A stretch of 64,000 bases of DNA, taken from Patescibacteria group bacterium UBA3533. Its GTDB lineage: Bacteria; Patescibacteriota; Minisyncoccia; Phycocordibacterales; Phycocordibacteraceae. Below are positions 5,417 through 64,000 of the stretch, piece by piece. The number at the start of each line of letters is the position of its first letter. The first letter of the stretch is position 1. The notes under the pieces are model-generated. The model did not search any database, was not told the origin of the DNA, and worked only from the letters and a program-made list of their open reading frames with translations. Where the stretch lies: positions 16,969-80,968 of the forward strand of contig DFOU01000011.1 in assembly GCA_002376865.1 (NCBI GenBank). Reading direction: 5' to 3'. Position numbers and translations under genes: made by a program.

Positions 5417-5615
5417 GTAGGAAACTATACCATTACTTAAGTATTTGTTGACAATAATTTTTAAATACAGCACCATCATTTTAGATCTGTGTACCTTGGC
5501 AGTGAAAGAGACTTGCAGTGTATGTATTTGGTCGAAAACCAAATATTATACGAGGCACGAACGGCCTCCATGCTCTCTGGCCACGAACGGCCGCACACAA
5601 GGTGGAGTACAACAA

Positions 5616-8085: not shown

Positions 8086-8116
8086 GCCGGCGGATTAGTT
8101 TCCGCCGGCTTTTTTT
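8086..8116 (+). terminator. intrinsic terminator (gccggcgg / ccgccggc stem plus T7)
   Basis: Perfect 8-bp GC stem followed by ttttttt. The stop codon of the convergent thermonuclease gene lies in its loop. Confidence 0.7.
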
Positions 8117-10370: not shown

Positions 10371-10886
10371 CTACAACCCCGCAGCCAAAATTCCCTTATT
10401 CACCTCAAGTATCAAATCTTCTGTTTTGTCTACGTTAGCCTCCTTGTCCGCATACCCAAGTGCAACAAGTATTTCAAAAGCAATCTCTGCCTCTTCCCTT
10501 TCAAAATCTATATCTTCCTCTCCTTTTACAAGCGCCTCTAACCTTTCATACACTTTTTGCTGCACCTCGTGCTCGGGTAACAATCTCCCCAGAAGACCAA
10601 GTATGTTTGCATATACTTTTTTACGCTCTCCTGTAAGGGTAAAGGAGTATTGCCGTACTTGATCCATTCCTTTAAGGCGCCAATTATATCTTCCACGAAT
10701 AAGAGAATAGATACTGTGTGTCCCAGGCTGCGTGCATGCAGCAAACGTAGCGCCCGCCCGCTTTGCAGCTTGTGCAATTACACGAATCTTTCCCAAGTCT
10801 TGGGTAAAGATAATTGCCTCTACAGAGTCTTCCTTATTGGGACGAGCTTTTAGTACGAATCCTGGAGTTGTGTACGTCTCATGCAT
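10371..10886 (-). CDS. recO: DNA repair protein RecO-like
   Basis: N-terminal OB-fold-like segment (GFVLKARPNKEDSVEAIIFTQDLGKIRVIAQAAKR); 171 aa, reduced form. Confidence 0.5.
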   Translation of the reverse strand: MHETYTTPGFVLKARPNKEDSVEAIIFTQDLGKIRVIAQAAKRAGATFAACTQPGTHSIYSLIRGRYNWRLKGMDQVRQYSFTLTGERKKVYANILGLLGRLLPEHEVQQKVYERLEALVKGEEDIDFEREEAEIAFEILVALGYADKEANVDKTEDLILEVNKGILAAGL

Positions 10887-13800
10887 GAACGACGTTTATC
10901 GTAAGTTGCTTCTCGCCAAGATCTACTTCTATTCCTCCAGGAAGCTCTTGTACGCGCTGGATAGTTTTAACTCCAGCAACACTCATAATTTCACTCTTGT
11001 ATGCATCTAGGAATGCTGCATTTCCTGCAATAGTTAGGATTGCAAAATCGTGTGGAGAGAAGTCCGCCTTCTTTCGTGCATCTTGTACCGCTCGTATAAA
11101 TTCTCGAACCATTCCCTTCTCCTTTAGCTCTGGAGTTAGTTCTGTATCAAGTTTAAGCTCTTCTCCATCGAGAATAATGTTCTCTACGTTTACTTCTTCC
11201 TTGATAAGAGCTTGGTATTCCTCTGTTAGAGAGATTCCTTTCTTTAGAGTGAGCGCATTGAGTGGCTGCCGTACTTTGTGCCCTGCAGTTTGTCGCATCA
11301 TAAGTGCATCACTTACGATAGTTCGTACTTCTTTCATAGTATCGAGTACTTCTTGGTCTATCTTCCCTGCTTCTGGCCAATCACATAGGTGTACACTCTC
11401 AGCATCACTCTCTTCTTTTAGTTCTCTATATAGATACTCTGCATAAAATGGCGTAGCAGGTGCCATTACCTTTGCAGTCTCCATAAGTACAAAGCGAAGT
11501 GTATGCATTGCATGCTCTGCATCTTCTCCTCCCTCTTTAATACGATCTCGAGAGCGCCTGACATACCATGTTGAAAGATCATCAAGGAAATCGAGAAGTG
11601 GGCGTGTGGCTTTATCAAATTCATATCCTTCATATCCTTTTGTTGTCTGATCTACAAGCTCATTTAGTCTTGAGATAATCCATGTATCAAGTACGTGCTT
11701 TGTTCCCTCTTTTCTCTGTACAGTGTCCTTATATAGATTGTAGAAAGAAAGTACGTTGTGCAGTCTTCCTACCACTTTTGAAGATGTTTCTTTTACACCT
11801 GCTTCTGAGAAAGAGAAGTCTTCTGCTCGTGATACAGGAGATGCGAGCATGTAGTACCGCACAGCATCTGCTCCATATTTATTGATTATCTCCATAGGAT
11901 CAGGATAGTTCTTGAGTTTCTTACTCATCTTCTGCCCATCCTCTGCAAGTACCGTTCCATTTACCACTACGTTTTCAAATGGTGCTTTTCCGAAGAGCCC
12001 TACGCCAAGAACGAGTAGTGAGTAGAACCACCCTCGTGTCTGATCGAGTCCCTCTGCAATATATTGTGCAGGATATCCCTTTGATTTACTAAAGAGTCCT
12101 CCCTTTGGATTAAATACATCTAAGTTGCTGTATGGATAGTTTTGCTGCGCATATGGCATTGATCCAGACTCAAACCAACAATCAAACACATCGAGGATCC
12201 GTGTGTACTCTTCTCCATCCTTCTCAAGCTTTATCTCATCAATATATGGACGATGGAAATCTAGCTCATAGTTTGCATTGTGTGGCAGCGCCACAAATGG
12301 AAGGTCCACTCGTGCTCCAGGCTCTGCGTGTGTCTTATCATGAATTTCCATTGAACGAGCACTGTTTGCTCCCTCAACAACTGCAGGAAGAATCTCCATT
12401 CCAATTCCATGCGTAACGATAAGAATCTTCTCATCTTGAAGCTGCGCTTCCTTCTCGTACATAAATTCTCCAAAGCGCTTCTTCACATCAAGGAAGCTCT
12501 CCCCTCCTGGGATAGTTGTCTCGTACGTGAAATCTTTCTCAATGAAATCAAAGTAATCTTTGATTGGCTTTCCTTGGAAATCTCCAAATCCAAGCTCGGC
12601 AAGTCGCTCATCAAAGACAACTTCGTCCTTTGAAAGGCCAATTTCTTCTGCAATTATTTCTGCTGTCTGCTTTGTTCGAAGGAATGGAGAAGCAAAGATT
12701 TTTGTAACTCCTTCTACTTTTAGCTTTGCGCCAGTCTCTTTTGCTAGCTTTACCCCTCTCTCAGTTAGCTTATACGGATCATCTTTATGTGCACTTACTA
12801 CATTTTTTACATTGTGCTCTCCCTCAGCGTGGCGCATTGCCATGTACGTGTTTCCTGACTTCTTTACGTGCGCCCGAAGATCCTCAACTCCACCCAATAC
12901 AATCTGATCTCCTTCTTCGTTCTCCCAGACAGGAAGAGGCGCTCCCCAGAAACGACTTCTTGAGATTGACCAGTCCTTTCCTCCCTTAAGCCAGTTACCG
13001 AATCGCTTAGATCCAACCTCTTTTGGCACCCAATGCACTTTGTCATTCTCCTTTACGAGTTGGTTCGTTATCTTTGGAGCGTTCACAAACCATGAGTCCA
13101 TCGCATAGTTTAGAAGCGGCTCATCTGTTCGCCATGAGTGTGGGTAGCTATGCTCAATCTTCTCTTTTTTGAAGAGTTTTCCAGCGTGTGCGAGCGCTTT
13201 GATGATTTCAATGTCAGTTGCTTGATGATTATCCTTTGGCTTTGCATCCATTCCGGCAAAGTCCCCTACTTCTTTTACAAACTTTCCACTCTTATTTACG
13301 TGGTGCACGATTGGCACACCTTCCTTTTGTGCAAGCTCAAGATCTTCTGCACCAAATGCTGGCGCTAGGTGTACTGCTCCTGTTCCAGAGTCTTCAGTTA
13401 CATAGTCTGCTGCATAGATTTTCCATGCATTCTCCTTCCCTTCTATCTCTTCGTTGAGGTAGTAGTTAAATGGAGGTTCGTATTCTTTCCCAACAAGATC
13501 CTTTCCTTTCATCTCTTCAAGGACTTCGTACTCCATTCCTTCAAAGAGTGAGAGTTTTTCTTTTGAAACAATGTACGTACCGTCTAGCTTTTCATCCCCT
13601 GTTACCTTTACCTTTGTATATACAAAATCAGGATTTACAGCAGCTGCCATGTTTCCAGGGAGTGTCCATGGTGTTGTGGTCCAGACAAGGAGTGAGGCGT
13701 TCATTCCTTTAATAGGTAGCGGTACTGTTACCGCAAAGTCTGTAATATCTTTATACCCTTGTGCTACTTCAATATTTGAAAGCTCTGTTCCCAGAAGTGG

Positions 13801-14337
13801 ACTTAGGTGGAGTGATTTAAATCCTTTATAGATAAGACCTTTATCATAGAGTGTTTTAAATGCCCACCACACACTCTCGGTATATGTTGGATCCATGGTT
13901 CGATAGTCATTGTCCATATCTACGAATCGTCCGATTCGCGGAATGAACTTCATCCAGTCATCTCTATACTGAAGCACTACCTTCTTTGCCTTCTCTACAA
14001 AGTTCTCAATTCCTACCTCTTCGATTATTTCCTGCTTAGTTGAAACACCAAACTCCTTCTCAACTTGTGCTTCAAGAGGAAGTCCATGACAGTCCCATCC
14101 CCAGCGACGCGGTACCGTATACCCCTTCATTGTCTTATACCGAGGAACAACATCCTTTAGAGTGCTCGCTAGTACGTGCCCATAGTGCGGGAGTCCTGTG
14201 GCAAATGGAGGTCCATCATAAAAAGTGAACGTCCCTTTGGGAGATTTTTTCTCTACAGATTTTTCAAAAATGCGCTCATTCTTCCAAAATTCCAGCATTT
14301 CTTCCTCTCGCTTCGAGAAGTCACTTTTGTCGCTCAT
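10879..14337 (-). CDS. ileS: isoleucine--tRNA ligase (type 2) with an inserted histidine-phosphatase (PGAM-like) domain
   Basis: PHYGHVL (HIGH), WTTTPWTLPGN (editing domain), KMSKKLKNYP (KMSKS), FGNWLKGGKDWSISRSRFWGAPLPVW. Unexpected segment of about 200 aa at nt 12259-12879 containing MRHAEGEHN, SPFLRTKQTAEII, GGESFLD..KRF and VTHGIGMEIL. Start taken at MSDKSDFSKREEEMLEFW. Confidence 0.9.
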   Translation of the reverse strand: MSDKSDFSKREEEMLEFWKNERIFEKSVEKKSPKGTFTFYDGPPFATGLPHYGHVLASTLKDVVPRYKTMKGYTVPRRWGWDCHGLPLEAQVEKEFGVSTKQEIIEEVGIENFVEKAKKVVLQYRDDWMKFIPRIGRFVDMDNDYRTMDPTYTESVWWAFKTLYDKGLIYKGFKSLHLSPLLGTELSNIEVAQGYKDITDFAVTVPLPIKGMNASLLVWTTTPWTLPGNMAAAVNPDFVYTKVKVTGDEKLDGTYIVSKEKLSLFEGMEYEVLEEMKGKDLVGKEYEPPFNYYLNEEIEGKENAWKIYAADYVTEDSGTGAVHLAPAFGAEDLELAQKEGVPIVHHVNKSGKFVKEVGDFAGMDAKPKDNHQATDIEIIKALAHAGKLFKKEKIEHSYPHSWRTDEPLLNYAMDSWFVNAPKITNQLVKENDKVHWVPKEVGSKRFGNWLKGGKDWSISRSRFWGAPLPVWENEEGDQIVLGGVEDLRAHVKKSGNTYMAMRHAEGEHNVKNVVSAHKDDPYKLTERGVKLAKETGAKLKVEGVTKIFASPFLRTKQTAEIIAEEIGLSKDEVVFDERLAELGFGDFQGKPIKDYFDFIEKDFTYETTIPGGESFLDVKKRFGEFMYEKEAQLQDEKILIVTHGIGMEILPAVVEGANSARSMEIHDKTHAEPGARVDLPFVALPHNANYELDFHRPYIDEIKLEKDGEEYTRILDVFDCWFESGSMPYAQQNYPYSNLDVFNPKGGLFSKSKGYPAQYIAEGLDQTRGWFYSLLVLGVGLFGKAPFENVVVNGTVLAEDGQKMSKKLKNYPDPMEIINKYGADAVRYYMLASPVSRAEDFSFSEAGVKETSSKVVGRLHNVLSFYNLYKDTVQRKEGTKHVLDTWIISRLNELVDQTTKGYEGYEFDKATRPLLDFLDDLSTWYVRRSRDRIKEGGEDAEHAMHTLRFVLMETAKVMAPATPFYAEYLYRELKEESDAESVHLCDWPEAGKIDQEVLDTMKEVRTIVSDALMMRQTAGHKVRQPLNALTLKKGISLTEEYQALIKEEVNVENIILDGEELKLDTELTPELKEKGMVREFIRAVQDARKKADFSPHDFAILTIAGNAAFLDAYKSEIMSVAGVKTIQRVQELPGGIEVDLGEKQLTINVVHA

Positions 14338-14363
14338 ATAAAGGATATAGTAGCAGGATGTAT

Positions 14364-14394
14364 AAAAAGTGAAAGACCGCACAATTGTGCGGTC
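14364..14394 (-). terminator. intrinsic terminator after the 14409-14660 gene
   Basis: gaccgcaca / tgtgcggtc stem followed by tttcacttttta on the minus strand. Confidence 0.6.
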
Positions 14395-14408
14395 CTCCCC
14401 AAAGATCA

Positions 14409-14660
14409 TCAAGCGGCTTGCGAAAGCCAGACATGGCCGGTGCCATTTTGCTGACGCCTCAGTCCACGTGCATTTAAAAATGCATCTTGAATGGAGACAT
14501 CGACCTGGCCTGGATCGGTGATGGTAATAACCGAACCTTCCATGGGGATCAATCCCTCCTTTTCACAGTGAATTTCAACAGGTCCCTTTTTCAAGAGCTT
14601 GTTGATGTCGCGCGCGAGCGTGCGCTGCGCACTTGGCCCATATGGACGACATTTCGACAA
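14409..14660 (-). CDS. small hypothetical protein (83 aa), GC-rich
   Basis: TTG start preceded by AAGGGAGGAGTG, its own terminator, about 50% GC. No recognised domain. Confidence 0.45.
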   Translation of the reverse strand: MSKCRPYGPSAQRTLARDINKLLKKGPVEIHCEKEGLIPMEGSVITITDPGQVDVSIQDAFLNARGLRRQQNGTGHVWLSQAA

Positions 14661-27598: not shown

Positions 27599-27640
27599 CA
27601 AAAGGCCGCCCTCTTTTTGTGGCGGCCTTTCATAATAATT
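27599..27640 (+). terminator. intrinsic terminator
   Basis: aaaggccgcc ctctttttgt ggcggccttt. Confidence 0.65.
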
Positions 27641-27690
27641 TTGTAATATCTGTGTCGTATCACAAAGTAGAAAATGCTACAGTACTGGCA

Positions 27691-29727
27691 ATGAAGCGTG
27701 TTGCCATAATACTTGTTGCAATTACTGTCGCTTTTCCCTTTGTAGCCTCTGCTGATATCGTTCTTGATCCAGATGTAAAAAATCCAATTCTCTTTTTACC
27801 TGGAATTCAAGCAAGTCGTTTGTATTCATTTTCTGACAATGGAAATTTTGAGCGTGTATGGGAGCCGTTAGGCAATAGTGATCTTAGAGAGCTTGAGATG
27901 ACAGAGAATGGTGAGAGCGTAAATGATATTCGTGTTGGACAGGTTATAGATAGAATTTTTGGCATAGGAGAAATCATCTATGGAAAAAATGATTTTGATA
28001 CTACAAATCAAGTTTTTTCTAATCCAAAATTACTTGAGCCACTAAGACTAGAAGACAGTCTTACTCCTGAGACACAAAAATATTTTTCAGCATACCAACT
28101 GTGGGTCGCATACCCCTACGACTGGAGGTATGACGTCTTCGATATTATTAGAGATGGAACTCTTCGCATGGATGGAGAACGACAGTATCTTGTTGAGGTT
28201 GTAGAAGCACTTGCAGAAAAAAGTGGAAAGATAAATATTGTTGCTCACTCAAATGGAGGTCTTTTAGCAAAAGCTTTAATGGTTCACCTTGAGGAAATTG
28301 GAAAAGAAGAGCTTGTGGAGAAAATTTTTCTTGTTGGAACACCTCAACTTGGAACACCAGAGGCAATAGGAGGACTTTTACACGGATACAAACAAAGCAG
28401 AGTACTTGGACTTGTTACAAACTCTGCAACATCAAGAGAGATTTCAAAAAATATGCCTGGCGCATACGCTCTTCTTCCCTCTCCTGCGTACTTTGAGAGA
28501 ATAGAAACACCCGTTGTGACTCACAGTATTTCTGGAAACCCTGTTGGTAATATTCCTTCTGGACCACTTTCTTCATATCAAAATCTTTTTGATTTCCTTA
28601 CTGGAAAAACATTTACTAGAAATGATCCATTCTTTGTAGATGCGCCTATAACACTGAGAGAGAATCTACTGGAAAAAGCGAAGGCAACTCATGCACGAAT
28701 TGATGCCTGGACACCTGGGCCAGAAACTACAGTTACTGAATTTGCTGGAGTTGGAAATGAAACCGCTATTAGTTTTTCATATAGAGAAACCCAGGCTTCA
28801 TACTGCCCTATTGGTCGTTTGGTTTGTATAAAAAGAAATGCAATTACCTACAGTCCCATCTTTTCATTTGATGGTGACAGTACAGTTGTTTCTCCTTCTG
28901 GTATTTTAGGTGACGGATATTATTTAGACTTAAATAAACTTAGCCTAGAAACTGATCGTGCACGAGAACATAAAAACTTGCTTGCAGAAGAAGAGCTGCT
29001 TTTGGGACTTGCCCCTGCCTTAACTGGAGAAGTTGTAACGTCTGACTTCCTCACAACAGAAAAACCAATAATCCCCACTGACAGAAACCACATTGCTATC
29101 AGTGTGCATTCCCCTGTGATTATTTCCGCAGAAGATAATTTGGGAAACATAACGTCTGTTGAATACGACACTGACCCTTCACAGACTCTTTTGAACATTA
29201 GAGAAGAAATTCCAGAAAGTTTTGTTGAAATAATTGGTGAAGGAAAATACATCTTTCTTCCAGAAGGAAATTATGAGATTTCTATAACAGGTACTGATGT
29301 TGGGTCTTTTGATCTTCTTCTTTCAGAGCTTAATGACAATGGCGAACTTCAAGAAACAGAAAAGTATTCAAACATTCCTGTCACAGCAAGCAGTACGGCT
29401 GCAACAACAATAGAAACAAACACTCTTTCTTCACTAACCCTTGATATTGAAGGTGACGGAACAAATGATTTTACCTTCTCAGAGGATGGTGCAAATGCAG
29501 AATCAATTAAAACTCTTATGATAAGTAATTTTGCTGCGCTAGATCTTAGGCCAACACTTCATTCTGCAATTGATCAATACTTTGCACTTTTGGAAACAGA
29601 GACTGATGAGGAAGTGCGAGCAACAATTATTGCGCAACTTGATCGCATTACTCAATTTCTTGATGGAAGATACATTACACAGGAGACAGCTAACGCTTGG
29701 AGAGCTTTTGTGCGAAACTTAGAGTAA
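27691..29727 (+). CDS. secreted alpha/beta-hydrolase, LCAT/PGAP1-like lipase or acyltransferase
   Basis: Signal peptide MKRVAIILVAITVAFPFVASA; YPYDWRYD motif; nucleophile elbow NIVAHSNGGLLAKA. Confidence 0.6.
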   Translation: MKRVAIILVAITVAFPFVASADIVLDPDVKNPILFLPGIQASRLYSFSDNGNFERVWEPLGNSDLRELEMTENGESVNDIRVGQVIDRIFGIGEIIYGKNDFDTTNQVFSNPKLLEPLRLEDSLTPETQKYFSAYQLWVAYPYDWRYDVFDIIRDGTLRMDGERQYLVEVVEALAEKSGKINIVAHSNGGLLAKALMVHLEEIGKEELVEKIFLVGTPQLGTPEAIGGLLHGYKQSRVLGLVTNSATSREISKNMPGAYALLPSPAYFERIETPVVTHSISGNPVGNIPSGPLSSYQNLFDFLTGKTFTRNDPFFVDAPITLRENLLEKAKATHARIDAWTPGPETTVTEFAGVGNETAISFSYRETQASYCPIGRLVCIKRNAITYSPIFSFDGDSTVVSPSGILGDGYYLDLNKLSLETDRAREHKNLLAEEELLLGLAPALTGEVVTSDFLTTEKPIIPTDRNHIAISVHSPVIISAEDNLGNITSVEYDTDPSQTLLNIREEIPESFVEIIGEGKYIFLPEGNYEISITGTDVGSFDLLLSELNDNGELQETEKYSNIPVTASSTAATTIETNTLSSLTLDIEGDGTNDFTFSEDGANAESIKTLMISNFAALDLRPTLHSAIDQYFALLETETDEEVRATIIAQLDRITQFLDGRYITQETANAWRAFVRNLE

Positions 29728-38552: not shown

Positions 38553-39005
38553 TTATACAGGAAACAAACCTTTTCCGAAGTGATGTGTAGCGTGACAATT
38601 TGGGCACAATAGTTCTAAATTAGATAATACATCTGTTCCGCCGCGATGCCGTTCCTTTTTGTGATGAACCTGGAGTATTGCGTAATTAGACATGTTACAG
38701 CGCTCACACACTCCACCTCTTTTTTGTGCCAATCTCTCTTTTAACAATGACCCTTGATACGCTTTGTTAAATTTACCTTCTTTAGTATACGAAATGCCAG
38801 TGCGTGACTTATTTGCACAGGTGCGCGAACAGGTCTTTTTTTGACCGACATAAACTCCTTTGCAGATTTTGCACTCTTTCTTTTTCTGCTGTCCAAGACC
38901 CATGCATTTTTGAGAGCAATATACGTTACCGTTTTTAATTTGTGTTGGCCTGCGATACATTCTCTCCTCGCACATAACACATTTGCAATTTGGTCTTCTT
39001 TTCAT
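38553..39005 (-). CDS. HNH endonuclease with Cys-rich zinc-ribbon repeats
   Basis: LQVHHKKERHRGGTDVLSNLELLCPNCHATHH, preceded by three CxxC...C repeats. Start at MKRRPNCKC; the upstream part of the ORF overlaps a plus-strand gene. Confidence 0.7.
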   Translation of the reverse strand: MKRRPNCKCVMCEERMYRRPTQIKNGNVYCSQKCMGLGQQKKKECKICKGVYVGQKKTCSRTCANKSRTGISYTKEGKFNKAYQGSLLKERLAQKRGGVCERCNMSNYAILQVHHKKERHRGGTDVLSNLELLCPNCHATHHFGKGLFPV

Positions 39006-39096
39006 ATTAAGTCTCTCTACCACTATACCACTTACTAAATGTTTTATTTGAACACTTCTGGGCAAATGTTCAAATGAAGATGCTATACTTTTTGCA

Positions 39097-39564
39097 ATGG
39101 ACAACAGCCCTCTATCTTGGAGAACAACAGAGAGGAATATCAAAGCCAGAAAACCTGACTGGTACTGGATCCTTGGAATTATTGCAGCAGCACTTGCTAT
39201 TGCTTCTATTCTTTTTGGAAACGTTCTCTTTGCAATTGTAATTGTCACAGGAGCAGTAGCGCTTGGCTTTGCTTCAGTTGGGGCTGCCAACGAATACACC
39301 ATTACGCTAACGAATCGAGGAGTGTTGATTGATTCAACACTCTTCCCATACGAAAATATTATCTCCTTCTGTATTCTTGAGTTTGAAAATGAAGATCCAG
39401 TACTTTCTCTTCGTACAAAAAGTATCTTTGCTCCACAGCTTTCTATTCCCCTTCCCGAAGGAATAGATCCTTATGAAGTATTTGATGTACTTGAGTACTA
39501 CGTACAAGAGGAAGAGCATCTAGATGGACTCTTCGAACGTTTTGTGGATTTTCTAGGATTTTAG
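39097..39564 (+). CDS. hypothetical membrane protein
   Basis: Two TM helices near the N-terminus; no recognised domain. Confidence 0.4.
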   Translation: MDNSPLSWRTTERNIKARKPDWYWILGIIAAALAIASILFGNVLFAIVIVTGAVALGFASVGAANEYTITLTNRGVLIDSTLFPYENIISFCILEFENEDPVLSLRTKSIFAPQLSIPLPEGIDPYEVFDVLEYYVQEEEHLDGLFERFVDFLGF

Positions 39565-58365: not shown

Positions 58366-59133
58366 ATGATCGGAAACATTTTTCACGCAGTAGCGTACGA
58401 CCCTATTTATAACCTTTTAGTATTTCTTGTAGACGTTATCCCTGGAGGTGATGTAGGTCTTGCGGTAGTTTTAGCTACTGTTGTGGTGAAGATTGTTCTC
58501 TTCCCTCTTTCGCTCTCTGCCGTACGTACGCAGATGGTGATGAAGATTGCGCAGCCTAAAATTAAAGAGATTCAGGAGCGTCTAAAGGATAAGCGAGAAG
58601 AAATGGCAAAAGAGCTTATGGCTCTCTATAAGGAGTATAAGATTAATCCTTTCTCATCTCTCCTACTCTTCCTTATCCAGATCCCTATTATTATCGCCCT
58701 GTACCTCGTGTTCCTTCGAGAAGCCTTTCCAGAGGTAAATGTAGATCTTCTCTATTCATTTGTTGCTATTCCAGAGGTCATAAGTCTTCAGTTCCTAGGA
58801 TTTATTGATGTAACAGGACGAAGTATCATCCTCGCACTTCTTGCAGGTATTACAGCTTATTTCCAGGTTCGTTTTGCGATGCCAGCTCCAGGACCACGGA
58901 AAGAAAATGCGTCTATGAAAGACGACATGATTCGAAACCTACAGATTCAGATGCGATTTATGATGCCTGTGCTTATTACAATCTTTGCATATGTAATTTC
59001 AGCTGCGGTGGCTCTCTATTTTGTTGCAAGCAACCTCTTTGCAATTGGACAAGAGCTTTATATGCGTCAGACAGTAAAGAAGGAAAAGAAAGAAGAGGAA
59101 GGAATTGTGGATGCTGAGGTGAAGGAAGTTTAA
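58366..59133 (+). CDS. yidC: membrane protein insertase YidC (short form)
   Basis: TVVVKIVLFPLS...KIAQPKIKEIQERLKDKREEMAKELMALYKEYKINPFSS. Confidence 0.9.
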   Translation: MIGNIFHAVAYDPIYNLLVFLVDVIPGGDVGLAVVLATVVVKIVLFPLSLSAVRTQMVMKIAQPKIKEIQERLKDKREEMAKELMALYKEYKINPFSSLLLFLIQIPIIIALYLVFLREAFPEVNVDLLYSFVAIPEVISLQFLGFIDVTGRSIILALLAGITAYFQVRFAMPAPGPRKENASMKDDMIRNLQIQMRFMMPVLITIFAYVISAAVALYFVASNLFAIGQELYMRQTVKKEKKEEEGIVDAEVKEV

Positions 59134-59201
59134 GTTCTTTACAAAAAAATTATTCTATGTGACATTGCACCTAGCAAAGGCTCTTTAGAAGGAAGAGAAC
59201 A

Positions 59202-59510
59202 ATGGAAAAATATAGAATCTTTTTTCCACTTGGTATTTCGCGGGTAAAAAAAGAAGAAGATATAAAAGGACTGCGAGATATTCTTGGTAAATTTGAGTTT
59301 CTTGGTGTGAATGTTTCTCGAACCTCAGAGACAGCTTTCTCGATTAGCCTCAATCGTACGAAAGTTCCAACAGCTCGTAGTGGACTAAAGGACATTAGTG
59401 AGACTGTTGGAGGTCTTGTTGGAGACAGCCTACGTTTGATGTTTGGCCAGAAAATCAAAATCTTATCTCCGAGGGAAAATGGTGTAGAAGTCGTTTTTTA
59501 CAAAGAGTGA
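59202..59510 (+). CDS. hypothetical protein (102 aa), possibly a small Jag/KhpB-like RNA-binding protein by position
   Basis: AGGAAGAGAACA then ATG; position after yidC; no confident motif. Confidence 0.35.
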   Translation: MEKYRIFFPLGISRVKKEEDIKGLRDILGKFEFLGVNVSRTSETAFSISLNRTKVPTARSGLKDISETVGGLVGDSLRLMFGQKIKILSPRENGVEVVFYKE

Positions 59511-59519
59511 CAATCAGAC

Positions 59520-59560
59520 AAAAACGCCTCATGTTACTTAACATGAGGCGTTTTTCTTTT
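59520..59560 (+). terminator. strong bidirectional terminator (aaaacgcctcatgtta / taacatgaggcgtttt)
   Basis: 16-bp perfect stem followed by tctttt. Confidence 0.7.
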
Positions 59561-60746
59561 AGAGATCAAATCCCCAAAGAGTGCCGTCTCTCCTGTTGAT
59601 GAAGGTTAGATAATCTTCATCCTCATCTACCGAAAGGTTAATTCCATCAAATGGCCCGCTCTCATCAAAGAATGCAATTGCTCGTGCTGTTCCAAGAGCA
59701 GCATTAATGCGCCACAGAGAGTCAGTAAATGAAATATATCCTTGGTACCAGTGCTCTGGATAGTTTGCAGGAGGTATGATCTCAGGAACCATACAATAGA
59801 GTGTTGTCTCATCTCCCCACACACACTTCTCAGGAAGTACTGCAAGCGGCAGTGCTTTTATTTCATCATCTCCCCTATCGTAGAGAGCTGATGTGTATGA
59901 CCTGTCTGAAGACTCGCTAAATACTACAAACTCTCCCGCTTCATTTGGAAGTGCGGTAAGTCCATTGATTCCTCCAAGGATTCGCTTCTGCGATCCATTT
60001 TCATAAAAATAAAGTGCGCCAGCGAGCGTGCTTACTGGCTTGGTAAGAACAGCAGCAAAAGACTCAGCAAACGAAGGAACAAGAATGCTTAGAAGATTGC
60101 TTTCAAATGAAAGACTCTCCCCTCTTCCTTCATTGTCTGAGATAAACCCTTCGCTTCCCCTCTCTGTTGTATGAACAGAAAGAAGTGAGTCATTAAATGT
60201 TTGCACTGCAGGTAAATCAACATCAAGGTATGAGCCATTGAGTGATCCTCCAGCAAGATCTCCAAGGTATGTTTCTATCTCTCCATCTCCATTCACGTAT
60301 CTAAAGACAACTTTGCTTGGATCGTTAAACCAGTGGACGTCCTGGATACCTGGGAAGGTTGTATTTGAAGTTCTTTCAGCTGTATTTTCTTCTGGATCGT
60401 ATGAGAAGACGTGCCCTGTTTGTTTGTCTACATACTGCACAACTGGTGTGCGTACAGACTCTGTTGTGCTCCCTACCGTTACTTCTATCTCATTTGTTCG
60501 AACAATAACTCCAGCTACAGGAGCTTCATGAATTTGTGTGAGAATAGTTTTTTCCTGTATTGGAGTGTCGTCAACAACAAAATCGATGTTGTCATCCTCT
60601 GGAATAGTTATAGGAGATCCTCCAGAACCAAATGATGGATTATTGTTTGGTGTTCCTGAAGTATCTCGAAGGACAAAGAAGTACACTCCCCCTGCAAGAA
60701 GGACGAAGAGAAGAATTATTCCTAAAAAGATTGCGATTCGGTTCAT
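59559..60746 (-). CDS. membrane-anchored hypothetical protein (395 aa), large extracytoplasmic domain
   Basis: N-terminal TM (IAIFLGIILLFVLLAGGVYFFVL); no recognised domain. Confidence 0.45.
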   Translation of the reverse strand: MNRIAIFLGIILLFVLLAGGVYFFVLRDTSGTPNNNPSFGSGGSPITIPEDDNIDFVVDDTPIQEKTILTQIHEAPVAGVIVRTNEIEVTVGSTTESVRTPVVQYVDKQTGHVFSYDPEENTAERTSNTTFPGIQDVHWFNDPSKVVFRYVNGDGEIETYLGDLAGGSLNGSYLDVDLPAVQTFNDSLLSVHTTERGSEGFISDNEGRGESLSFESNLLSILVPSFAESFAAVLTKPVSTLAGALYFYENGSQKRILGGINGLTALPNEAGEFVVFSESSDRSYTSALYDRGDDEIKALPLAVLPEKCVWGDETTLYCMVPEIIPPANYPEHWYQGYISFTDSLWRINAALGTARAIAFFDESGPFDGINLSVDEDEDYLTFINRRDGTLWGFDL

Positions 60747-60749
60747 GTT

Positions 60750-61679
60750 TTAAAATAGTCCACACCTAACACCTCCACTTCCTCCAACAATTTCTAATCT
60801 TTCAACAATACTGTCTCCAACTCGTGTTCGTGTTGTCGGCATGAGCTCAAGAATTCCTGCATGGAGAAGTTCCGTAACTTTATTGTCTGCCCAAGTACTA
60901 TTAGCATTTTCATCAATTTGATTACACAGCCCAGCTTTTACACGACCAGTAATATTAATGGCTGCACCCTGTATAACTGTCCCAAGTTCGTTATCTAAAT
61001 AAATATCAGCTTTAACAGCAATATTTATTGTTCTCTGGTCACAAAAGACTTCATTGTGTGTTCCTCCATCAGCTCTTACTCTTCTGCTGTCCAGCAAACC
61101 TTCTGTACTAGAGCAACATCTCGCAAGTTCAGTATGAGACATGTCTTCTACGGTCGGTAGGTGACCATCTCTTTCTGGCCCAATAACATTCTGTTTGTTG
61201 CCCCTCCAAGCGACATCAGTACATGCAGCAGAAATGGTTCCTTCAACTCCTCCAGGACCTCCTACTCCATTATCAATAGGGTTTCTTCCGTATTTGTCAG
61301 GATCAAGATTATCTAAATTGAAATTAAGATTCAAAATATCTTGATTGATAACTCCAAATACAATAACTGGAGAAAGCAGAAGCAGAAGTCCAAGGATTGC
61401 TCTTTGGATATCTTCTCTTCCTGCACTCTTTTCCCCCACCGCCTCACTTGTCATGTATCTAAATCCTCCATACATAATGATAAGTACTGCAAGAATAGCT
61501 CCAAGACCAACTCCATACTGATAGAGTTGATTTACAAATGAACCGATGTTCTCTTGGTTTCCTGTTTCTACACCAATGTCAGTTAAAGGTTCTACAGTAA
61601 TAGCGCCTTGTGCGAGAGCTTCTGCGCCAAAAAGAAGTGCAAGTGCAAGAAGTCCGAATGTATAAAGTGTTGCTTTCAT
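60750..61679 (-). CDS. hypothetical secreted/membrane protein; N-terminal part has VirB2/TrbC-pilin-like topology
   Basis: Signal peptide, two closely spaced TM helices (LGAILAVLIIMYGGF / ILGLLLLLSPVIVFGVI), then a Cys-containing extension of about 190 aa. Confidence 0.4.
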   Translation of the reverse strand: MKATLYTFGLLALALLFGAEALAQGAITVEPLTDIGVETGNQENIGSFVNQLYQYGVGLGAILAVLIIMYGGFRYMTSEAVGEKSAGREDIQRAILGLLLLLSPVIVFGVINQDILNLNFNLDNLDPDKYGRNPIDNGVGGPGGVEGTISAACTDVAWRGNKQNVIGPERDGHLPTVEDMSHTELARCCSSTEGLLDSRRVRADGGTHNEVFCDQRTINIAVKADIYLDNELGTVIQGAAINITGRVKAGLCNQIDENANSTWADNKVTELLHAGILELMPTTRTRVGDSIVERLEIVGGSGGVRCGLF

Positions 61680-61680
61680 A

Positions 61681-62679
61681 TTAGAAATTAAATAATCCTG
61701 AATTTTCAATACCAAAAGTAAATGCTGCTGAATCACTTCCTTGGATAACCACTTCCTTAGGGTGTTCGATTGAAACACTTACCTGTGCTTTCCCTCTTCC
61801 ATTCCCTGCTTGGCGAAGGGTGATGGTTCCAAGGTCATCATTGGTGCTTTCTACTGTCTTTCCATTTAACTTCCACTTATATGTAATAGGAAGAGAGCTT
61901 CTGTATGTCCCCGGTACATAAAATGGCTCTGCATTAATTGTAACCTCTTCTTCTGCAAGCTCTGATTCGTTTGCCAAGATACTCGCAGTACTTAGTCCAA
62001 GAAGTGGGTTAATGGCATAGAGTAGCACCTGAGGAGTTTCAGTTTTTAGAGAAACAACCTCTCTTCCTTGTACTTTTCCATCAGCACTTTCTACGTCTAC
62101 ACGAACTTCAAGCCTTCTGCTGTATGGAGCCGCGGTTGTCTTTAGAATGTTTCGTCCAGCGCCAGATAGTGATCCTTGCACGGTTCCATTTACACGCCAT
62201 GTGTAGATAAAATCTTCAGCATCGTATCCATTTCCAAAAAACGGGGTTGCAACAACACGAATAGGTGCCTCATGTGTAGGAAGAGCCCTTCCTTTATATA
62301 GTGGTGGTGTGTAGGTGTTGGGTTCAACAATAAGATCAATTGCAGATGTGGTTATGGCAGTGCTGTGAGAGATAGTTTCCCCTCCCCTTGTTGCGGTAAA
62401 GGCAACAGTTTTTCTTTCTCCAACATCTCCTGCAATTACCTCAATACTTTTTATTCCCTTCCCCTCCTTTACAATCTCCCCATCAACTCTCCAGGTTGTA
62501 TATGCTCGAGAAATATCAAAAGAGTATGTCTCTGCAAAGACAGTAACCACTTCTCCTGTGTCAGGGAATTGAGGATTTATTTCAAAATCAAAGGCACGCT
62601 CCACCTGCGCTGCAGCAGGTAATGCGCTCAAAAGAGAAAGTACTAAAAGTGCACTAAAAATCCGTACAAGTGCTTGCAT
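61681..62679 (-). CDS. secreted protein with three Ig/PKD-like repeats
   Basis: Signal peptide; repeats WRVDGEIV, WRVNGTVQ and WKLNGKTV. Confidence 0.5.
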   Translation of the reverse strand: MQALVRIFSALLVLSLLSALPAAAQVERAFDFEINPQFPDTGEVVTVFAETYSFDISRAYTTWRVDGEIVKEGKGIKSIEVIAGDVGERKTVAFTATRGGETISHSTAITTSAIDLIVEPNTYTPPLYKGRALPTHEAPIRVVATPFFGNGYDAEDFIYTWRVNGTVQGSLSGAGRNILKTTAAPYSRRLEVRVDVESADGKVQGREVVSLKTETPQVLLYAINPLLGLSTASILANESELAEEEVTINAEPFYVPGTYRSSLPITYKWKLNGKTVESTNDDLGTITLRQAGNGRGKAQVSVSIEHPKEVVIQGSDSAAFTFGIENSGLFNF

Positions 62680-62727
62680 ATAGTGCTATGGTAGCACGCA
62701 CTACAGAAGAAAAAGTGTGGTTTTCAA

Positions 62728-63201
62728 CTATGCTGCTCGCTTCTGCTCCTCCTCTTTTTGATTATCATTTGCGGCCTTGGCAACTTTGCTTACAACTTTT
62801 CCCGCTGGAGTTGCTTTAAGTAAGAAATCAGGCACAAGTGATGCAGGAAATCCTTTTGATCCATTTGCTTCAATTAGTGTAAAGAGAACTGATCCTGAAA
62901 GAATTGGCATTGCTGTCAAAAAAGGTAGTGCTTCAAGCAATAGCCCCCCAGTTCGTGAAAGGAATGACATTGGTTTCTTAATATTGAAAAATTGTACGTT
63001 AAGGAAGGCAAACCAGATTATAAATACCATATACGCAAAGATAGTAACTGGTGTTGTGATTACAAAAACAAGAACTTGGGTTACTACAGTTGGAAGAAAG
63101 CCAAGCATTGTCTCTACAAGCTGGAAAAGATCAAAGAAACCAGCGACAAGTAGCATTGCGCTAGCAGGAAGCATTCCTATTTTTGGTTTATTAGGCTCCA
63201 T
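62728..63201 (-). CDS. polytopic membrane protein immediately downstream of the VirB4-like gene
   Basis: 3-4 TM helices; 11-nt overlap with the VirB4-like gene. Confidence 0.4.
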   Translation of the reverse strand: MEPNKPKIGMLPASAMLLVAGFFDLFQLVETMLGFLPTVVTQVLVFVITTPVTIFAYMVFIIWFAFLNVQFFNIKKPMSFLSRTGGLLLEALPFLTAMPILSGSVLFTLIEANGSKGFPASLVPDFLLKATPAGKVVSKVAKAANDNQKEEEQKRAA

Positions 63202-64000
63202 TTTGTGGATTTGTTGCAGCTAAGCGCTCCTTTTCGCGCTTTATGGCAAGTAATTGTGATGGATCTGAGGTAATAATCTGATCCTCTGTGTATGAGGCAA
63301 CAATCTTAATAGCTACATGTTTAAGTCCTGCAAAGAATATTCCCTCTCCTACCCCACTTTCAAGAAGCAAGAACTTCTCTTCTTCAGTTAAATTAAAGAT
63401 TTCTTGCAATTGATCAATAACAGTTGGCGACTGCTTCATCAAAAGTTGCATTGAAGAGTTTGAAAGCATTGGTCTTCCGTATGGAGAGTTTAGGAAGTCA
63501 TCTACATCTTGCGTAAGAGCTGCAACTCCAAGGAAGTACTTTCGTCCTCGCTTTGCCATTGAGTAGAGGAAGGATGCGGTGTCCTCATGCTTCATCATCC
63601 ACCATGCCTCATCAATAACAAGAAGTCGTTTCTTGAGATTTCTTCGTACCGCATTCCAAATGTGGTGCGTGATGATGTACATCGCAACAGGCTTAAGGTC
63701 ATCCTCCATGTCTCGCACTGAGAAGACAATAAATTGCTTATTGATGTCGACATTGGTTGGGCGATTTAAGAATCCAGACCATGTTCCTCGTGTGTACTTG
63801 CTTAGTTTTTGCACCAAAGAGTCAGATCCTTCCATCCCAGAGAGCACCATTTCAAAATCTGAGAGAAGTGGCACCTCCATGTTTGAGAAATCAGTCTCAC
63901 CGGTAATGTCTTTAAGTGCATACGTCTCAGATAGCGCCCGATCTACCATCGCATCCTCCTCAGGAGTGAGTCCCCCGAGCATAAGCCGGAATAATCCCAC
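63191..64000 (-). CDS. VirB4/TrbE/CagE-family type IV secretion ATPase, C-terminal 269 aa (N-terminus beyond window end)
   Basis: Walker B LLVIDEAWWMM, then AKRGRKYFLGVAALTQDVDDF, the conserved VirB4 C-terminal motifs. Confidence 0.65.
   Translation of the reverse strand: MGLFRLMLGGLTPEEDAMVDRALSETYALKDITGETDFSNMEVPLLSDFEMVLSGMEGSDSLVQKLSKYTRGTWSGFLNRPTNVDINKQFIVFSVRDMEDDLKPVAMYIITHHIWNAVRRNLKKRLLVIDEAWWMMKHEDTASFLYSMAKRGRKYFLGVAALTQDVDDFLNSPYGRPMLSNSSMQLLMKQSPTVIDQLQEIFNLTEEEKFLLLESGVGEGIFFAGLKHVAIKIVASYTEDQIITSDPSQLLAIKREKERLAATNPQNGA

What the first reader, a model, noticed from the sequence alone, without database searches (positions are those of the whole stretch)
59559..64000. Partial type IV secretion-like locus: VirB4-family ATPase, membrane protein, Ig-repeat secreted protein and a VirB2-pilin-like fusion protein
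The right edge encodes the C-terminal 269 aa of a VirB4/TrbE-family ATPase (LLVIDEAWWMM; GRKYFLGVAALTQ). It is followed co-directionally by a polytopic membrane protein. Next comes a signal-peptide protein with three W(R/K)(V/L)(D/N)G repeats. Then a protein whose N-terminus has the signal-plus-two-TM topology of VirB2/TrbC pilins fused to a 190-aa Cys-containing domain. Last is a bitopic protein with a large extracytoplasmic domain. Together with the type IV pilus genes elsewhere in the window, this suggests a conjugation-, competence- or symbiosis-related envelope machine. Its accessory components are not assignable to known VirB families.
Basis: partly seen in the sequence, partly recalled or inferred. 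Interest (0 to 1): 0.55.

Follow-up and report, generated by a model that had tools for sequence, protein, structure and literature searches.

The report
Patescibacteria type IV secretion locus
The right edge of the window is the downstream half of the chromosomal, relaxase-less type IV secretion system already described for ultra-small Patescibacteria; its one less ordinary feature is a single VirB2-like pilin whose cysteine-rich outer tail is swapped as a cassette between close relatives.

Summary
The same contig was recovered, and it completes the locus upstream: ksgA, a toxin-antitoxin pair, g310, g457, a VirB6-like protein, g167, PrgI (VirB3-like), TrsD (the VirB4 N-domain as a separate ORF) and a 611-aa VirB4. 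Downstream come g157, g332, the pilin and g395, then yidC, rnpA, rpmH and dnaA.

No coupling protein or relaxase lies in about 72 kb. This matches the Patescibacteria T4SS described by Quinonero-Coronel et al. 2025 and shown essential in Saccharibacteria by Wang et al. 2023. The system is therefore already known.

New detail for this Paceibacteria/Kaiserbacteria-type lineage:
- The module g157 / g332 (three Ig-like domains) / pilin / g395 (membrane-anchored beta-propeller) is nearly universal downstream of virB4 in 80 related genomes.
- VirB4 is more conserved than DnaA, whereas the envelope proteins sit near 30% identity.
- There is one pilin gene per locus. Its conserved hairpin is followed by a 0-322 aa disulfide-type tail with no known fold or domain.
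- That tail is replaced with sharp DNA borders in a close relative.

Most likely this is a host-contact transport machine, not a conjugation machine. Function is inferred, not shown.

The parts
63191..64000 (-). C-terminal 269 aa of the VirB4 ATPase, cut by the window edge. The full gene is 611 aa at L001 7654-9489. It is preceded there by trsD, prgI, g167, a virB6-like gene, g457 and g310.
   Evidence: NCBIfam CD1110-family VirB4 E=1.4e-47 for the fragment. The full protein scores 393.5 bits against a cut-off of 325. The window is identical to L001 over 9001 nt. Identity is 72-92% in 80 Paceibacteria-type genomes.
62728..63201 (-). g157: small polytopic membrane protein with 3-4 TM helices and a charged C-terminal tail. 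It belongs to an unannotated Patescibacteria family with no Pfam or NCBIfam match.
   Evidence: Three hydropathy peaks. An iterative HMM finds it at the same position in 67 loci. D24, P93 and P99 are nearly invariant. The database search returns only Patescibacteria hypothetical proteins with no Pfam domain.
61681..62679 (-). g332: secreted protein with a signal peptide and three divergent Ig-like beta-sandwich repeats, each carrying a W-[RK]-[VL]-[DN]-G motif.
   Evidence: Motifs at residues 63, 161 and 269. W161 and W269 are invariant in 37 homologues. BiPBP_C matches 12 of 37 members, and phage Hoc Ig matches at E=9e-4. It is present in 78 loci.
61608..61679 (-). Pilin gene: signal peptide, residues 1-24, ending ...ALAQ|G.
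   Evidence: Hydrophobic N-terminus and a conserved A-x-A-Q motif in the alignment.
61305..61607 (-). Pilin gene: conserved VirB2-like helical hairpin, residues 25-125. It has two TM helices joined by a nearly invariant basic loop, YMTSE..G.K..GR..I.RA.
60750..61259 (-). Pilin gene: variable C-terminal cassette, residues about 141-309 plus the stop codon. It comprises a Gly-rich linker and a 6-Cys alpha/beta domain with no recognisable fold.
59559..60746 (-). g395: N-terminal TM anchor, a roughly 40-aa linker and an extracytoplasmic beta-propeller. It has a conserved Cys308/Cys318 pair and an aromatic cluster near the C-terminus.
   Evidence: AF2 pLDDT 88.6, pTM 0.82, all-beta. Foldseek gives 931 PDB matches at E<=0.001, and the listed ones are mostly WD40-type and TolB-type propellers. 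The profile hits TolB at E=0.012. Some homologues carry PG_binding_1. It is present in 65 loci.

Best explanation
This is the downstream half of the chromosomally fixed, vertically inherited type IV secretion system of a marine Paceibacteria-class (Kaiserbacteria-related) Patescibacteria cell. It is the MPF-FATA-derived, relaxase-less T4SS already described for this phylum.

Shown:
- The locus runs from ksgA to the rpmH-rnpA-yidC/dnaA origin region.
- It encodes g310, g457, an extended VirB6-like protein, g167, PrgI (VirB3-like), TrsD plus VirB4 (a split VirB4), g157, g332, one VirB2-like pilin and g395.

Inferred mechanism:
- TrsD/VirB4, docked on PrgI and the VirB6-like channel protein (perhaps with the small membrane protein g157), powers extraction of pilin from the membrane. 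It also drives substrate passage.
- The pilin hairpin polymerises into a tube or short conduit, with both termini outside.
- The disulfide-bonded C-terminal tail is therefore displayed on the surface. It acts as an exchangeable host-recognition module.
- The secreted three-Ig protein g332 and the membrane-anchored, peptidoglycan-associated propeller g395 form the wall-spanning scaffold. They stand in for the missing VirB8/9/10-type parts.
- The machine serves contact-dependent exchange with the host cell on which the bacterium lives: effector export or uptake of host material. It does not serve conjugative DNA transfer.
For: Identity of the system:
- VirB4 passes the CD1110-family cut-off. PrgI passes the Pfam cut-off.
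- TrsD-type ORF: NF041427 E=7e-6, and VirB4 N-terminal models also match.
- TrbL and TrbL_4 hit the VirB6-like family. PF18895 hits the pilin.
- The composition and the position next to ksgA, rnpA, rpmH, dnaA and dnaN are exactly those reported for Patescibacteria T4SS (PMC12102498).

Vertical inheritance and essential-type constraint:
- The same gene order occurs in 80 species-level genomes.
- Locus GC is 0.426, against 0.425 for the window.
- VirB4 identity exceeds DnaA identity in 58 of 59 genomes and correlates with it (rho 0.64).

Not conjugative:
- No T4CP, relaxase or integrase appears in the 64-kb window or the 8.7 kb beyond it.

Exposed, fast-evolving outer parts:
- Median identity is 76% for VirB4 but 26-33% for g332, g395, g457 and g310.
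- 45 of 47 pilin tails of 80 aa or more have an even Cys count. Tails are 5.5% Cys, against 0.1-1.1% in four other locus proteins.
- 54 tails fall into 32 unrelated clusters.
- A relative with a 94%-identical hairpin has an unrelated tail, while 62%-identical hairpins carry homologous tails.
- The DNA breakpoints of the replacement are sharp.

Peptidoglycan link:
- PG_binding_1 occurs in g395 homologues.

Functional precedent:
- The homologous Saccharibacteria T4SS and its pilins are essential for epibiotic growth, whereas ComEC is not (PMC10633639 and PMC12857230).
Against: - No function was tested here. No Paceibacteria T4SS has been studied experimentally in the papers read.
- Only about 72 kb of a genome of roughly 0.6 Mb was examined, so a distant T4CP cannot be excluded. 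The 2025 survey finds VirD4-like genes far from virB4 in many Patescibacteria.
- The pilin's own PF18895 score is marginally below the cut-off. A profile of the hairpin finds no solved VirB2/TraA pilin by sequence.
- Whether a subunit carrying a roughly 18-kDa domain can polymerise is unknown.
- The roles given to g157, g332 and g395 rest only on position, topology and fold.
- The tail's binding role is inferred from its variability alone.
Confidence: 0.65

Rival explanations
1. A DNA-uptake machine. It would be analogous to the Helicobacter ComB system or the archaeal Ced system. Both use VirB4-type ATPases and VirB2-like or pilin-like proteins without a relaxase or coupling protein. It would import host or environmental DNA as a nucleotide source or for transformation.
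For: - No relaxase or T4CP lies near the locus.
- A VirB2-like pilin is present.
- There are weak CedB and CedD hits on VirB4.
- In Kaiserbacteria-type relatives, comEC lies a few kb upstream of prgI.
- The 2025 survey notes comF, recG and radA near T4SS genes in class ABY1.
- These organisms cannot make nucleotides, which is general knowledge about Patescibacteria.
Against: - In Southlakia epibionticum, competence depends on type IV pili and ComEC. Deleting comEC is tolerated, whereas the T4SS is essential.
- The CedB hit is only 27.8 bits against a cut-off of 700.
- comEC is not adjacent in this genome's locus.
- A hypervariable surface domain is not needed for sequence-independent DNA uptake.
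Confidence: 0.15
2. The pilin fusion does not polymerise. It would be a membrane-anchored surface adhesin or receptor, or a minor/tip subunit, that reuses the VirB2 hairpin only as an anchor. The T4SS would then be pilus-less like other Gram-positive systems.
For: - Gram-positive MPF-FATA systems lack pili and use surface adhesins.
- No second, tail-less pilin gene occurs in the window or in the 20-kb neighbourhoods of 69 related loci. A pilus would therefore have to be built entirely of bulky subunits.
- No solved pilin is found by sequence.
Against: - The hairpin, and especially its inter-helix loop, is the most conserved part of the protein. In F- and T-pili this loop lines the lumen, which is established structural knowledge. 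Such conservation is more than a mere anchor would need.
- Sister lineages carry the same gene without any tail (tails of 0-11 aa in L057, L071, L073, L074, L077, L080 and L082). They are plain pilins.
- A flexible Gly-rich linker separates hairpin and tail.
Confidence: 0.3
3. A conjugative element (ICE), or its remnant, integrated next to the replication origin.
For: - VirB4, TrsD and PrgI are most similar to conjugation proteins of Firmicutes and Mollicutes elements.
- A PhD/ParE toxin-antitoxin pair lies at the upstream border.
Against: - No relaxase, T4CP, integrase or repeat borders were found.
- The position and gene order are identical in 80 species.
- GC content equals that of the genome.
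- VirB4 divergence tracks DnaA divergence, and VirB4 is even more conserved than DnaA.
Confidence: 0.03
4. The variable pilin tail is a polymorphic toxin domain delivered to the host, comparable to the CdiA-CT and Rhs-CT cassettes.
For: - A conserved N-terminal part is joined to non-homologous C-terminal cassettes at a sharp junction.
Against: - The replaced segment ends at the pilin stop codon, and the conserved g395 gene follows 3 nt later. No immunity gene travels with the cassette.
- The tails are Cys-rich with even counts, which is typical of stable extracellular domains.
- No toxin family or fold was detected.
Confidence: 0.04

Closest known systems
Patescibacteria (CPR) T4SS: the Southlakia epibionticum ML1 locus SEML1_0004-0019 (Wang et al. 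2023) and the phylum-wide survey of Quinonero-Coronel et al. 2025
   Same: - Split VirB4 (TrsD plus VirB4), PrgI, an extended VirB6-like protein and PF18895 VirB2-like pilin.
- No relaxase or coupling protein in the locus.
- Location beside dnaA, dnaN, rnpA, rpmH and ksgA.
- An Ig-like exported protein next to virB4 (PEGA protein SEML1_0005 in S. epibionticum, g332 here).
   Different: - S. epibionticum has six short, divergent pilin genes in an array. It also has lysozyme-like and 1114-aa proteins downstream of virB4.
- This lineage has one pilin gene with an exchangeable Cys-rich tail, and the module g157 / three-Ig protein / beta-propeller.
- No VirB1-like hydrolase was recognised in the locus.
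Gram-positive conjugative T4SS of class MPF-FATA (pGO1/pSK41 TrsC-TrsD-TrsE, pCF10 PrgH-PrgI-PrgJ, CTn2 CD1110)
   Same: - VirB4 passes the CD1110-family model.
- TrsD exists as a separate small ORF, as in pGO1.
- A PrgI-type VirB3 is present.
- The envelope is monoderm, with no VirB7/9/10.
   Different: - No relaxase, T4CP, VirB8-like (PrgL) protein, VirB1-like hydrolase or PrgB-type adhesin was found.
- It has a VirB2-like pilin, which these systems lack.
- It is chromosomal, syntenic and vertically inherited rather than mobile.
Relaxase-less DNA-import T4SS relatives: Helicobacter pylori ComB and the Sulfolobales Ced system
   Same: A VirB4-type ATPase works with pilin-like or membrane proteins and without a relaxase or coupling protein.
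   Different: - Sequence similarity to CedB and CedD is far below their cut-offs.
- ComB has VirB7-10 homologues for a diderm envelope.
- In the only Patescibacteria tested, competence runs through type IV pili and ComEC, not the T4SS.
Type IV pilins (T4P major pilins), as an architectural analogue only
   Same: A conserved hydrophobic N-terminal polymerisation module is followed by a variable, disulfide-stabilised globular C-terminal domain exposed on the filament. Variation is concentrated in that domain.
   Different: - The families are unrelated. Here the module is a two-helix VirB2-type hairpin with a Sec-type signal peptide, not a class III signal peptide with a single N-terminal helix.
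- Assembly would use VirB4, not PilB.
- The window's own T4P genes (PilB, PilM) are separate.

Membership tests
VirB4/TraC/TrbE family T4SS ATPase | Full-length match to a curated VirB4 model above its cut-off, including the Walker A/B P-loop domain | tested here: met
   The 611-aa protein scores 393.5 bits against NF045971 (cut-off 325), and also matches P-loop_TraG, AAA_10 and DUF87. The window fragment gives E=1.4e-47 and contains the Walker B motif LLVIDEAWW.
VirB4/TraC/TrbE family T4SS ATPase | Placement inside the VirB4 clade (Patescibacteria/MPF-FATA branch) in a phylogeny | not tested
   No tree was built. The indirect evidence is that the 80 best genome matches (72-92% identity) are all Patescibacteria MAGs, and the best curated model is the Firmicutes CD1110 type.
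Patescibacteria T4SS (as defined in PMC12102498) | TrsD-like ORF and PrgI/VirB3-like ORF adjacent to virB4 | tested here: met
   In L001, 6587-7039 is PrgI (36.4 bits, cut-off 27). L001 7029-7652 is TrsD/TraC-like (NF041427 E=7e-6; VirB4 N-terminal models also match). They are present in 76 and 79 of 81 loci.
Patescibacteria T4SS (as defined in PMC12102498) | VirB2-like pilin (PF18895 or PF04956) encoded near virB4 | tested here: met
   The pilin lies three genes downstream of virB4. The survey's inclusion criterion was i-Evalue below 0.001 with more than 50% profile coverage. The window protein has a whole-protein E of 7.3e-6 and covers profile positions 3-70 of 71.
Patescibacteria T4SS (as defined in PMC12102498) | No relaxase associated with the cluster; chromosomal position near dnaA/dnaN/rnpA/rpmH/ksgA | tested here: met
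   The locus is bounded by ksgA and by yidC-rnpA-rpmH/dnaA-dnaN. No relaxase or T4CP domain appears in any ORF of 225 aa or more in the window, or in the 8.7 kb beyond it. The rest of the genome was not seen.
VirB2/TrbC-type T4SS pilin | Signal peptide followed by two hydrophobic helices joined by a short basic loop | tested here: met
   Hydropathy peaks lie at residues 5-23, 52-70 and 94-112. AF2 predicts helices 45-77 and 84-116. The loop YMTSEAVGEKSAGREDIQR is conserved.
VirB2/TrbC-type T4SS pilin | Sequence match to the family model above the curated cut-off | tested here: inconclusive
VirB2/TrbC-type T4SS pilin | Polymerises into an extracellular filament or channel in a VirB4-dependent way | not testable with these tools
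   This needs cryo-EM or cryo-ET, or biochemistry.
VirB6/TrbL | Polytopic membrane protein matching TrbL/VirB6 models, encoded in the T4SS cluster | tested here: inconclusive
   The 726-aa protein at L001 3544-5724 matches PF04610 at E=4.6e-4, 20.5 bits, below the 25.9 cut-off. Two of 23 family members reach E=6.8e-7, and one hits TrbL_4 at 4e-7. It lies outside the window.
Conjugative T4SS (MPF-FATA) as a mobile element | Relaxase plus type IV coupling protein (VirD4/TcpA), and VirB8-like and VirB1-like components | tested here: not met
   None was detected in the locus or in the 64-kb window. The whole genome could not be checked.
Diversity-generating retroelement target (considered for the variable tail) | A template repeat similar to the variable region, and a reverse transcriptase nearby | tested here: not met
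   blastn of the tail against the whole window finds only itself. No reverse-transcriptase domain appears among the scanned ORFs.

The most novel reading that the evidence does not exclude
In this Paceibacteria lineage the T4SS pilus would be built from a single VirB2-like subunit. Each copy would display an exchangeable, disulfide-rich domain of a fold not seen in the PDB. That would make it the first conjugative-type pilin naturally fused to a globular receptor-binding module. Cassette replacement of that module would set host range. This would be a second route to pilin diversity, alongside the multi-gene pilin arrays of Saccharibacteria and Microgenomatia. The co-occurring g157 membrane protein would be a dedicated factor for handling the tailed pilin.
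Probability: 0.3. Interest if true: 0.7.

Novelty: new member of a known kind. Interest (0 to 1): 0.4.

Why it matters
Patescibacteria make up a large share of uncultured bacterial diversity and live attached to host cells. Their T4SS is the only T4SS known to be essential to its owner, and its substrate is unknown.

This locus does not change that picture. It does give concrete handles for the largest class, Paceibacteria:
- a defined and nearly universal core: prgI, trsD, virB4, g157, the three-Ig protein, the pilin and the propeller;
- a motor more conserved than DnaA;
- one clearly exposed, cassette-like variable domain. It is the obvious candidate for the host-specificity determinant, and it could be matched to hosts in co-occurrence data or tested by binding assays.

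Tried and rejected
- **Promoters and terminators.** The scan over 59100-64000 gave nothing above the shuffled expectation.
- **Rfam.** Only tRNAs were found in the window.
- **PDB profile searches.** The pilin hairpin, g332, g395 and g457 returned only weak hits (Hoc Ig, TolB) or none.
- **g457 as VirB5/TraI-like.** Only one of 22 homologues hit DUF4141, at E=3.6e-5. This remains a lead and is not a claim.
- **DGR or silent-cassette mechanism for tail variation.** There is no repeat of the tail and no second pilin-domain ORF in 64 kb.
- **g157 as a DsbB/VKOR-like oxidase for the Cys-rich tails.** Rejected, because the window protein has no cysteine.
- **The 102-aa ORF at 59202-59510 as Jag/KhpB.** There is no Pfam hit and no homologue in 80 loci.
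- **ICE hypothesis.** Rejected on synteny, GC content and congruent divergence.
- **Taxonomy look-up of UBA2103.** Nothing was found.

Full report
**1. Observation**

The region 59559-64000 carries five co-directional minus-strand ORFs exactly as described.

- **VirB4 fragment (63191-64000, 269 aa).** It contains the quoted motifs. It matches NCBIfam VirB4-like CD1110 family at E=1.4e-47 and Pfam P-loop_TraG at E=4e-18.
- **g157 (62728-63201).** It has three hydropathy peaks.
- **g332 (61681-62679).** It has a signal peptide, and WRVDG, WRVNG and WKLNG at residues 63, 161 and 269.
- **Pilin-like protein.** It most likely starts at the ATG at 61679 (309 aa) rather than at the upstream GTG of the mechanical ORF. 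This is the start used by the public gene calls, and it fits the homologue alignment. It has a signal peptide, two hydrophobic helices and a six-cysteine tail.
- **g395 (59559-60746).** It has a single N-terminal TM helix.

Intergenic distances are -11, 48, 1 and 3 nt, so this looks like one operon. The simple promoter/terminator scan added nothing.

**2. Extending the contig**

An exact-sequence look-up of g332 recovered the same contig twice. One copy is ENA ERZ27286447 k119_1073675 (114 kb, locus L001). The other is a JGI metagenome contig (sample 3300020447, L002). The window and L001 are identical over 9001 nt. The conversion is window x = 72680 - L001 position.

Upstream of the window edge, the locus continues as follows:

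| Gene | Size | Evidence |
|---|---|---|
| VirB4 (rest of the gene) | 611 aa in all | 393.5 bits against NF045971, cut-off 325 |
| TrsD/TraC-like | 207 aa | Aligns to the N-terminal 130-200 residues of VirB4 models, so VirB4 is split as in pGO1 |
| PrgI (VirB3-like) | 139-150 aa | 36.4 bits, cut-off 27 |
| g167 | 167 aa | Not identified |
| VirB6-like | 726 aa | Polytopic, with a coiled-coil tail; TrbL E=4.6e-4, family members reach 6.8e-7 |
| g457 | 457 aa | Secreted |
| g310 | 310 aa | TM protein with a TSP3-type calcium-binding repeat |
| PhD/ParE pair | - | Toxin-antitoxin |
| ksgA | - | Upstream boundary |

Downstream of g395 lie an orphan 102-aa ORF, yidC, rnpA, rpmH, dnaA and dnaN.

No coupling protein, relaxase or integrase domain was found in any ORF of 225 aa or more in the window, or in the extra 8.7 kb. 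No second pilin-domain ORF or other T4SS family member occurs elsewhere in the window.

**3. What it is**

This is the Patescibacteria T4SS. Quinonero-Coronel et al. 2025 (PMC12102498) describe a distinct VirB4 clade sister to MPF-FATA. It comes with TrsD, PrgI, VirB6 and PF18895-type VirB2-like pilins near virB4, and almost never with a relaxase. In Paceibacteria and Microgenomatia it sits next to dnaA, dnaN, rnpA, ksgA and rpmH. Every one of these features is present here.

Wang et al. 2023 (PMC10633639) showed that the homologous cluster SEML1_0006-0019 of Southlakia epibionticum, including its six pilins, is essential for epibiotic growth. The FEMS review PMC12857230 stresses that comEC is dispensable there.

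A scan of one genome per species with VirB4 returned 80 loci, all from Paceibacteria-, Kaiserbacteria- or Parcubacteria-labelled MAGs, at 72-92% identity. Some carry generic 'Saccharibacteria' labels. The best match is the complete genome of 'Patescibacteria group bacterium UBA2103'. The host organism is therefore a marine member of this lineage.

**4. Conservation of the locus**

BLAST and iterative HMM searches of all ORFs in the 81 loci gave the following.

- **Core order.** prgI, trsD, virB4, g157, g332, pilin, g395, (yidC), dnaA is present wherever the contig reaches. Locus counts are TrsD 79, g332 78, PrgI 76, pilin 69, g157 67 and g395 65.
- **Upstream module.** ksgA, g310, g457, virB6-like, g167 is adjacent in about 44 loci. 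It is absent from the adjacent upstream sequence in 20 Kaiserbacteria-type loci. In the three examined (L004, L020, L053) housekeeping genes and comEC lie upstream instead.
- **Conservation gradient.** Median identity to the window proteins falls steeply: VirB4 76%, DnaA 67%, TrsD 55%, PrgI 49%, ksgA 48%, yidC 46%, pilin hairpin 40%, g457 33%, g395 30%, g332 29%, VirB6-like 29%, g310 26%.
- **Vertical inheritance.** VirB4 is more conserved than DnaA in 58 of 59 genomes. Its divergence tracks that of DnaA (Spearman 0.64). Locus GC equals window GC.

This is the signature of an old, vertically inherited, strongly constrained machine whose exposed parts evolve quickly. It is not the signature of a mobile element.

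**5. The accessory proteins in the window**

- **g395.** AF2 with 47 homologues gives pLDDT 88.6 and pTM 0.82: a TM helix, a linker and an all-beta domain. Foldseek finds 931 PDB matches at E<=0.001, and the listed ones are mostly WD40-type and TolB-type propellers. The sequence profile weakly hits TolB (E=0.012). Three homologues carry a PG_binding_1 domain. Invariant Cys308/Cys318 and a Trp/Tyr cluster mark a conserved site. It is a membrane-anchored extracytoplasmic propeller, probably associated with the cell wall.
- **g332.** It is a signal-peptide protein with three divergent Ig-like repeats. BiPBP_C matches 12 of 37 family members, and the family profile hits the Ig domains of phage Hoc.
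- **g157.** Its family is found only in Patescibacteria and has no Pfam or NCBIfam annotation. It has a conserved Asp in the first helix and two prolines in the last.

None of the three can be assigned to a VirB family. As an inference, they are candidates for the wall-spanning scaffold that replaces the VirB8, VirB9 and VirB10 functions.

**6. The pilin**

*The tail.* After a Gly-rich linker comes a roughly 165-aa domain, modelled with pLDDT 76-94.
- It has no credible PDB neighbour and no Pfam match.
- It has only five relatives among 1.84 billion representative proteins. Four are pilins of about 310 aa and one is a 225-aa fragment.

*Variation across related loci.*
- There is exactly one pilin gene per locus. 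Its tail ranges from 0 to 322 aa.
- Of tails of 80 aa or more, 45 of 47 have an even number of cysteines. Tails are 5.5% Cys, against 0.1-1.1% in four other locus proteins.
- The 54 tails of 60 aa or more fall into 32 BLAST clusters, 29 of them singletons.

*Mosaic distribution.* P0006 has a mature hairpin 94% identical to the window's but an unrelated tail. P0004 and P0012 have hairpins only 62-63% identical but homologous tails.

*Sharp DNA borders.* The contig carrying P0006 (L083) aligns to this locus at about 80% identity through g332 and the pilin hairpin. The alignment stops at window 61260. There is no alignment across 60750-61259, and it resumes at about 79% exactly at the g395 start.

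The tail is therefore an exchangeable cassette. No template repeat, silent copy or reverse transcriptase was found in the window. How the cassette is replaced remains unknown.

*Published context.* The papers read do not mention tailed PF18895 pilins. A structure-clustering preprint notes that PF18895 proteins dominate freshwater-specific structural clusters, which fits such diversity.

**7. Mechanism**

*Shown:* composition, topology, synteny, the conservation gradient and the cassette behaviour.

*Inferred from established T4SS knowledge:*
- TrsD/VirB4, on PrgI and the VirB6-like protein, energises pilin extraction and substrate passage.
- The pilin has both termini outside, so the disulfide-bonded tail faces the exterior.
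- The tail's variability points to recognition of a variable partner, most plausibly the host cell surface.
- g332 and g395 bridge the wall.

By my own rough geometry, using F-pilus parameters, a domain of about 18 kDa per subunit is only just compatible with a helical tube when held on a 25-residue linker. The alternative, that the protein is a non-polymerising surface anchor or a tip subunit, therefore stays open (confidence about 0.3).

The substrate is unknown. Lack of a relaxase and T4CP argues against conjugation. The Saccharibacteria genetics argue against ComEC-linked DNA uptake, but that does not exclude it here.

**8. Verdict**

The system as such is already described, so the finding is a further member of a known kind.

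The added value is:
- definition of the conserved downstream module in the Paceibacteria/Kaiserbacteria-type lineage;
- the single pilin with an orphan, cassette-like, cysteine-rich tail;
- an unexplained co-occurrence of long tails with g157. The counts are 43 tailed and 11 untailed pilins in loci with g157, against 0 and 11 in loci without it (Fisher p=8e-7, not corrected for phylogeny).

Interest is moderate.

Noticed in passing
window 10879-14412 (-): The isoleucyl-tRNA synthetase (1177 aa) carries a histidine-phosphatase (His_Phos_1) domain at residues 526-685, inserted within the catalytic domain match.
   Followed up: no
window 59202-59510 (+): A 102-aa ORF lies between g395 and yidC, at the position where jag/khpB often sits. 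It has no Pfam hit and no homologue in 80 related loci. The DNA here is not conserved in the close relative L083. It may be an orphan gene, or not a gene at all.
   Followed up: partly
L020 4130-5659; L053 5258-6799; L004 5286-6814 (two ORFs): In the three examined Kaiserbacteria-type loci that lack the adjacent VirB6 module (20 such loci in all), a comEC gene (Competence + DUF4131) lies 2-3 kb upstream of prgI. In L004 it appears split into two ORFs.
   Followed up: partly
related loci L003-L082 (pilin and g157 positions): Long Cys-rich pilin tails occur only in loci that also encode the g157 membrane protein: 43 of 54 loci with g157, against 0 of 11 without it. This is not corrected for phylogeny. 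g157 has no cysteine, so it is not a DsbB-like oxidase.
   Followed up: partly
L001 644-1169: A PhD/ParE-type toxin-antitoxin pair sits between ksgA and the first T4SS gene.
   Followed up: no
L001 2168-3541 (g457 family): This secreted 457-aa protein has conserved WINSGF.GSPAF and TPGSVI motifs. One of 22 homologues hits DUF4141 at E=3.6e-5. From memory, that domain belongs to Bacteroidetes conjugative-transposon proteins, so this is a possible VirB5/TraI-like lead. It is untested.
   Followed up: partly
window 27619-29727 (+), 3539-5542 (-), 8095-8874 (-), 38553-39302 (-): Other envelope or scavenging-type genes are present: a 702-aa LCAT-like acyltransferase/lipase, a 667-aa DUF11-repeat protein, a staphylococcal-nuclease homologue and an HNH-domain protein.
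   Followed up: no
loci L058, L064, L066, L068, L070, L071, L072, L077, L080, L082: The g310 family (TM plus TSP3 repeat protein) has two matching ORFs per locus in this sub-clade. For L068 and L072 the two hits lie side by side. Most loci of this sub-clade lack g157 and have short pilin tails.
   Followed up: no
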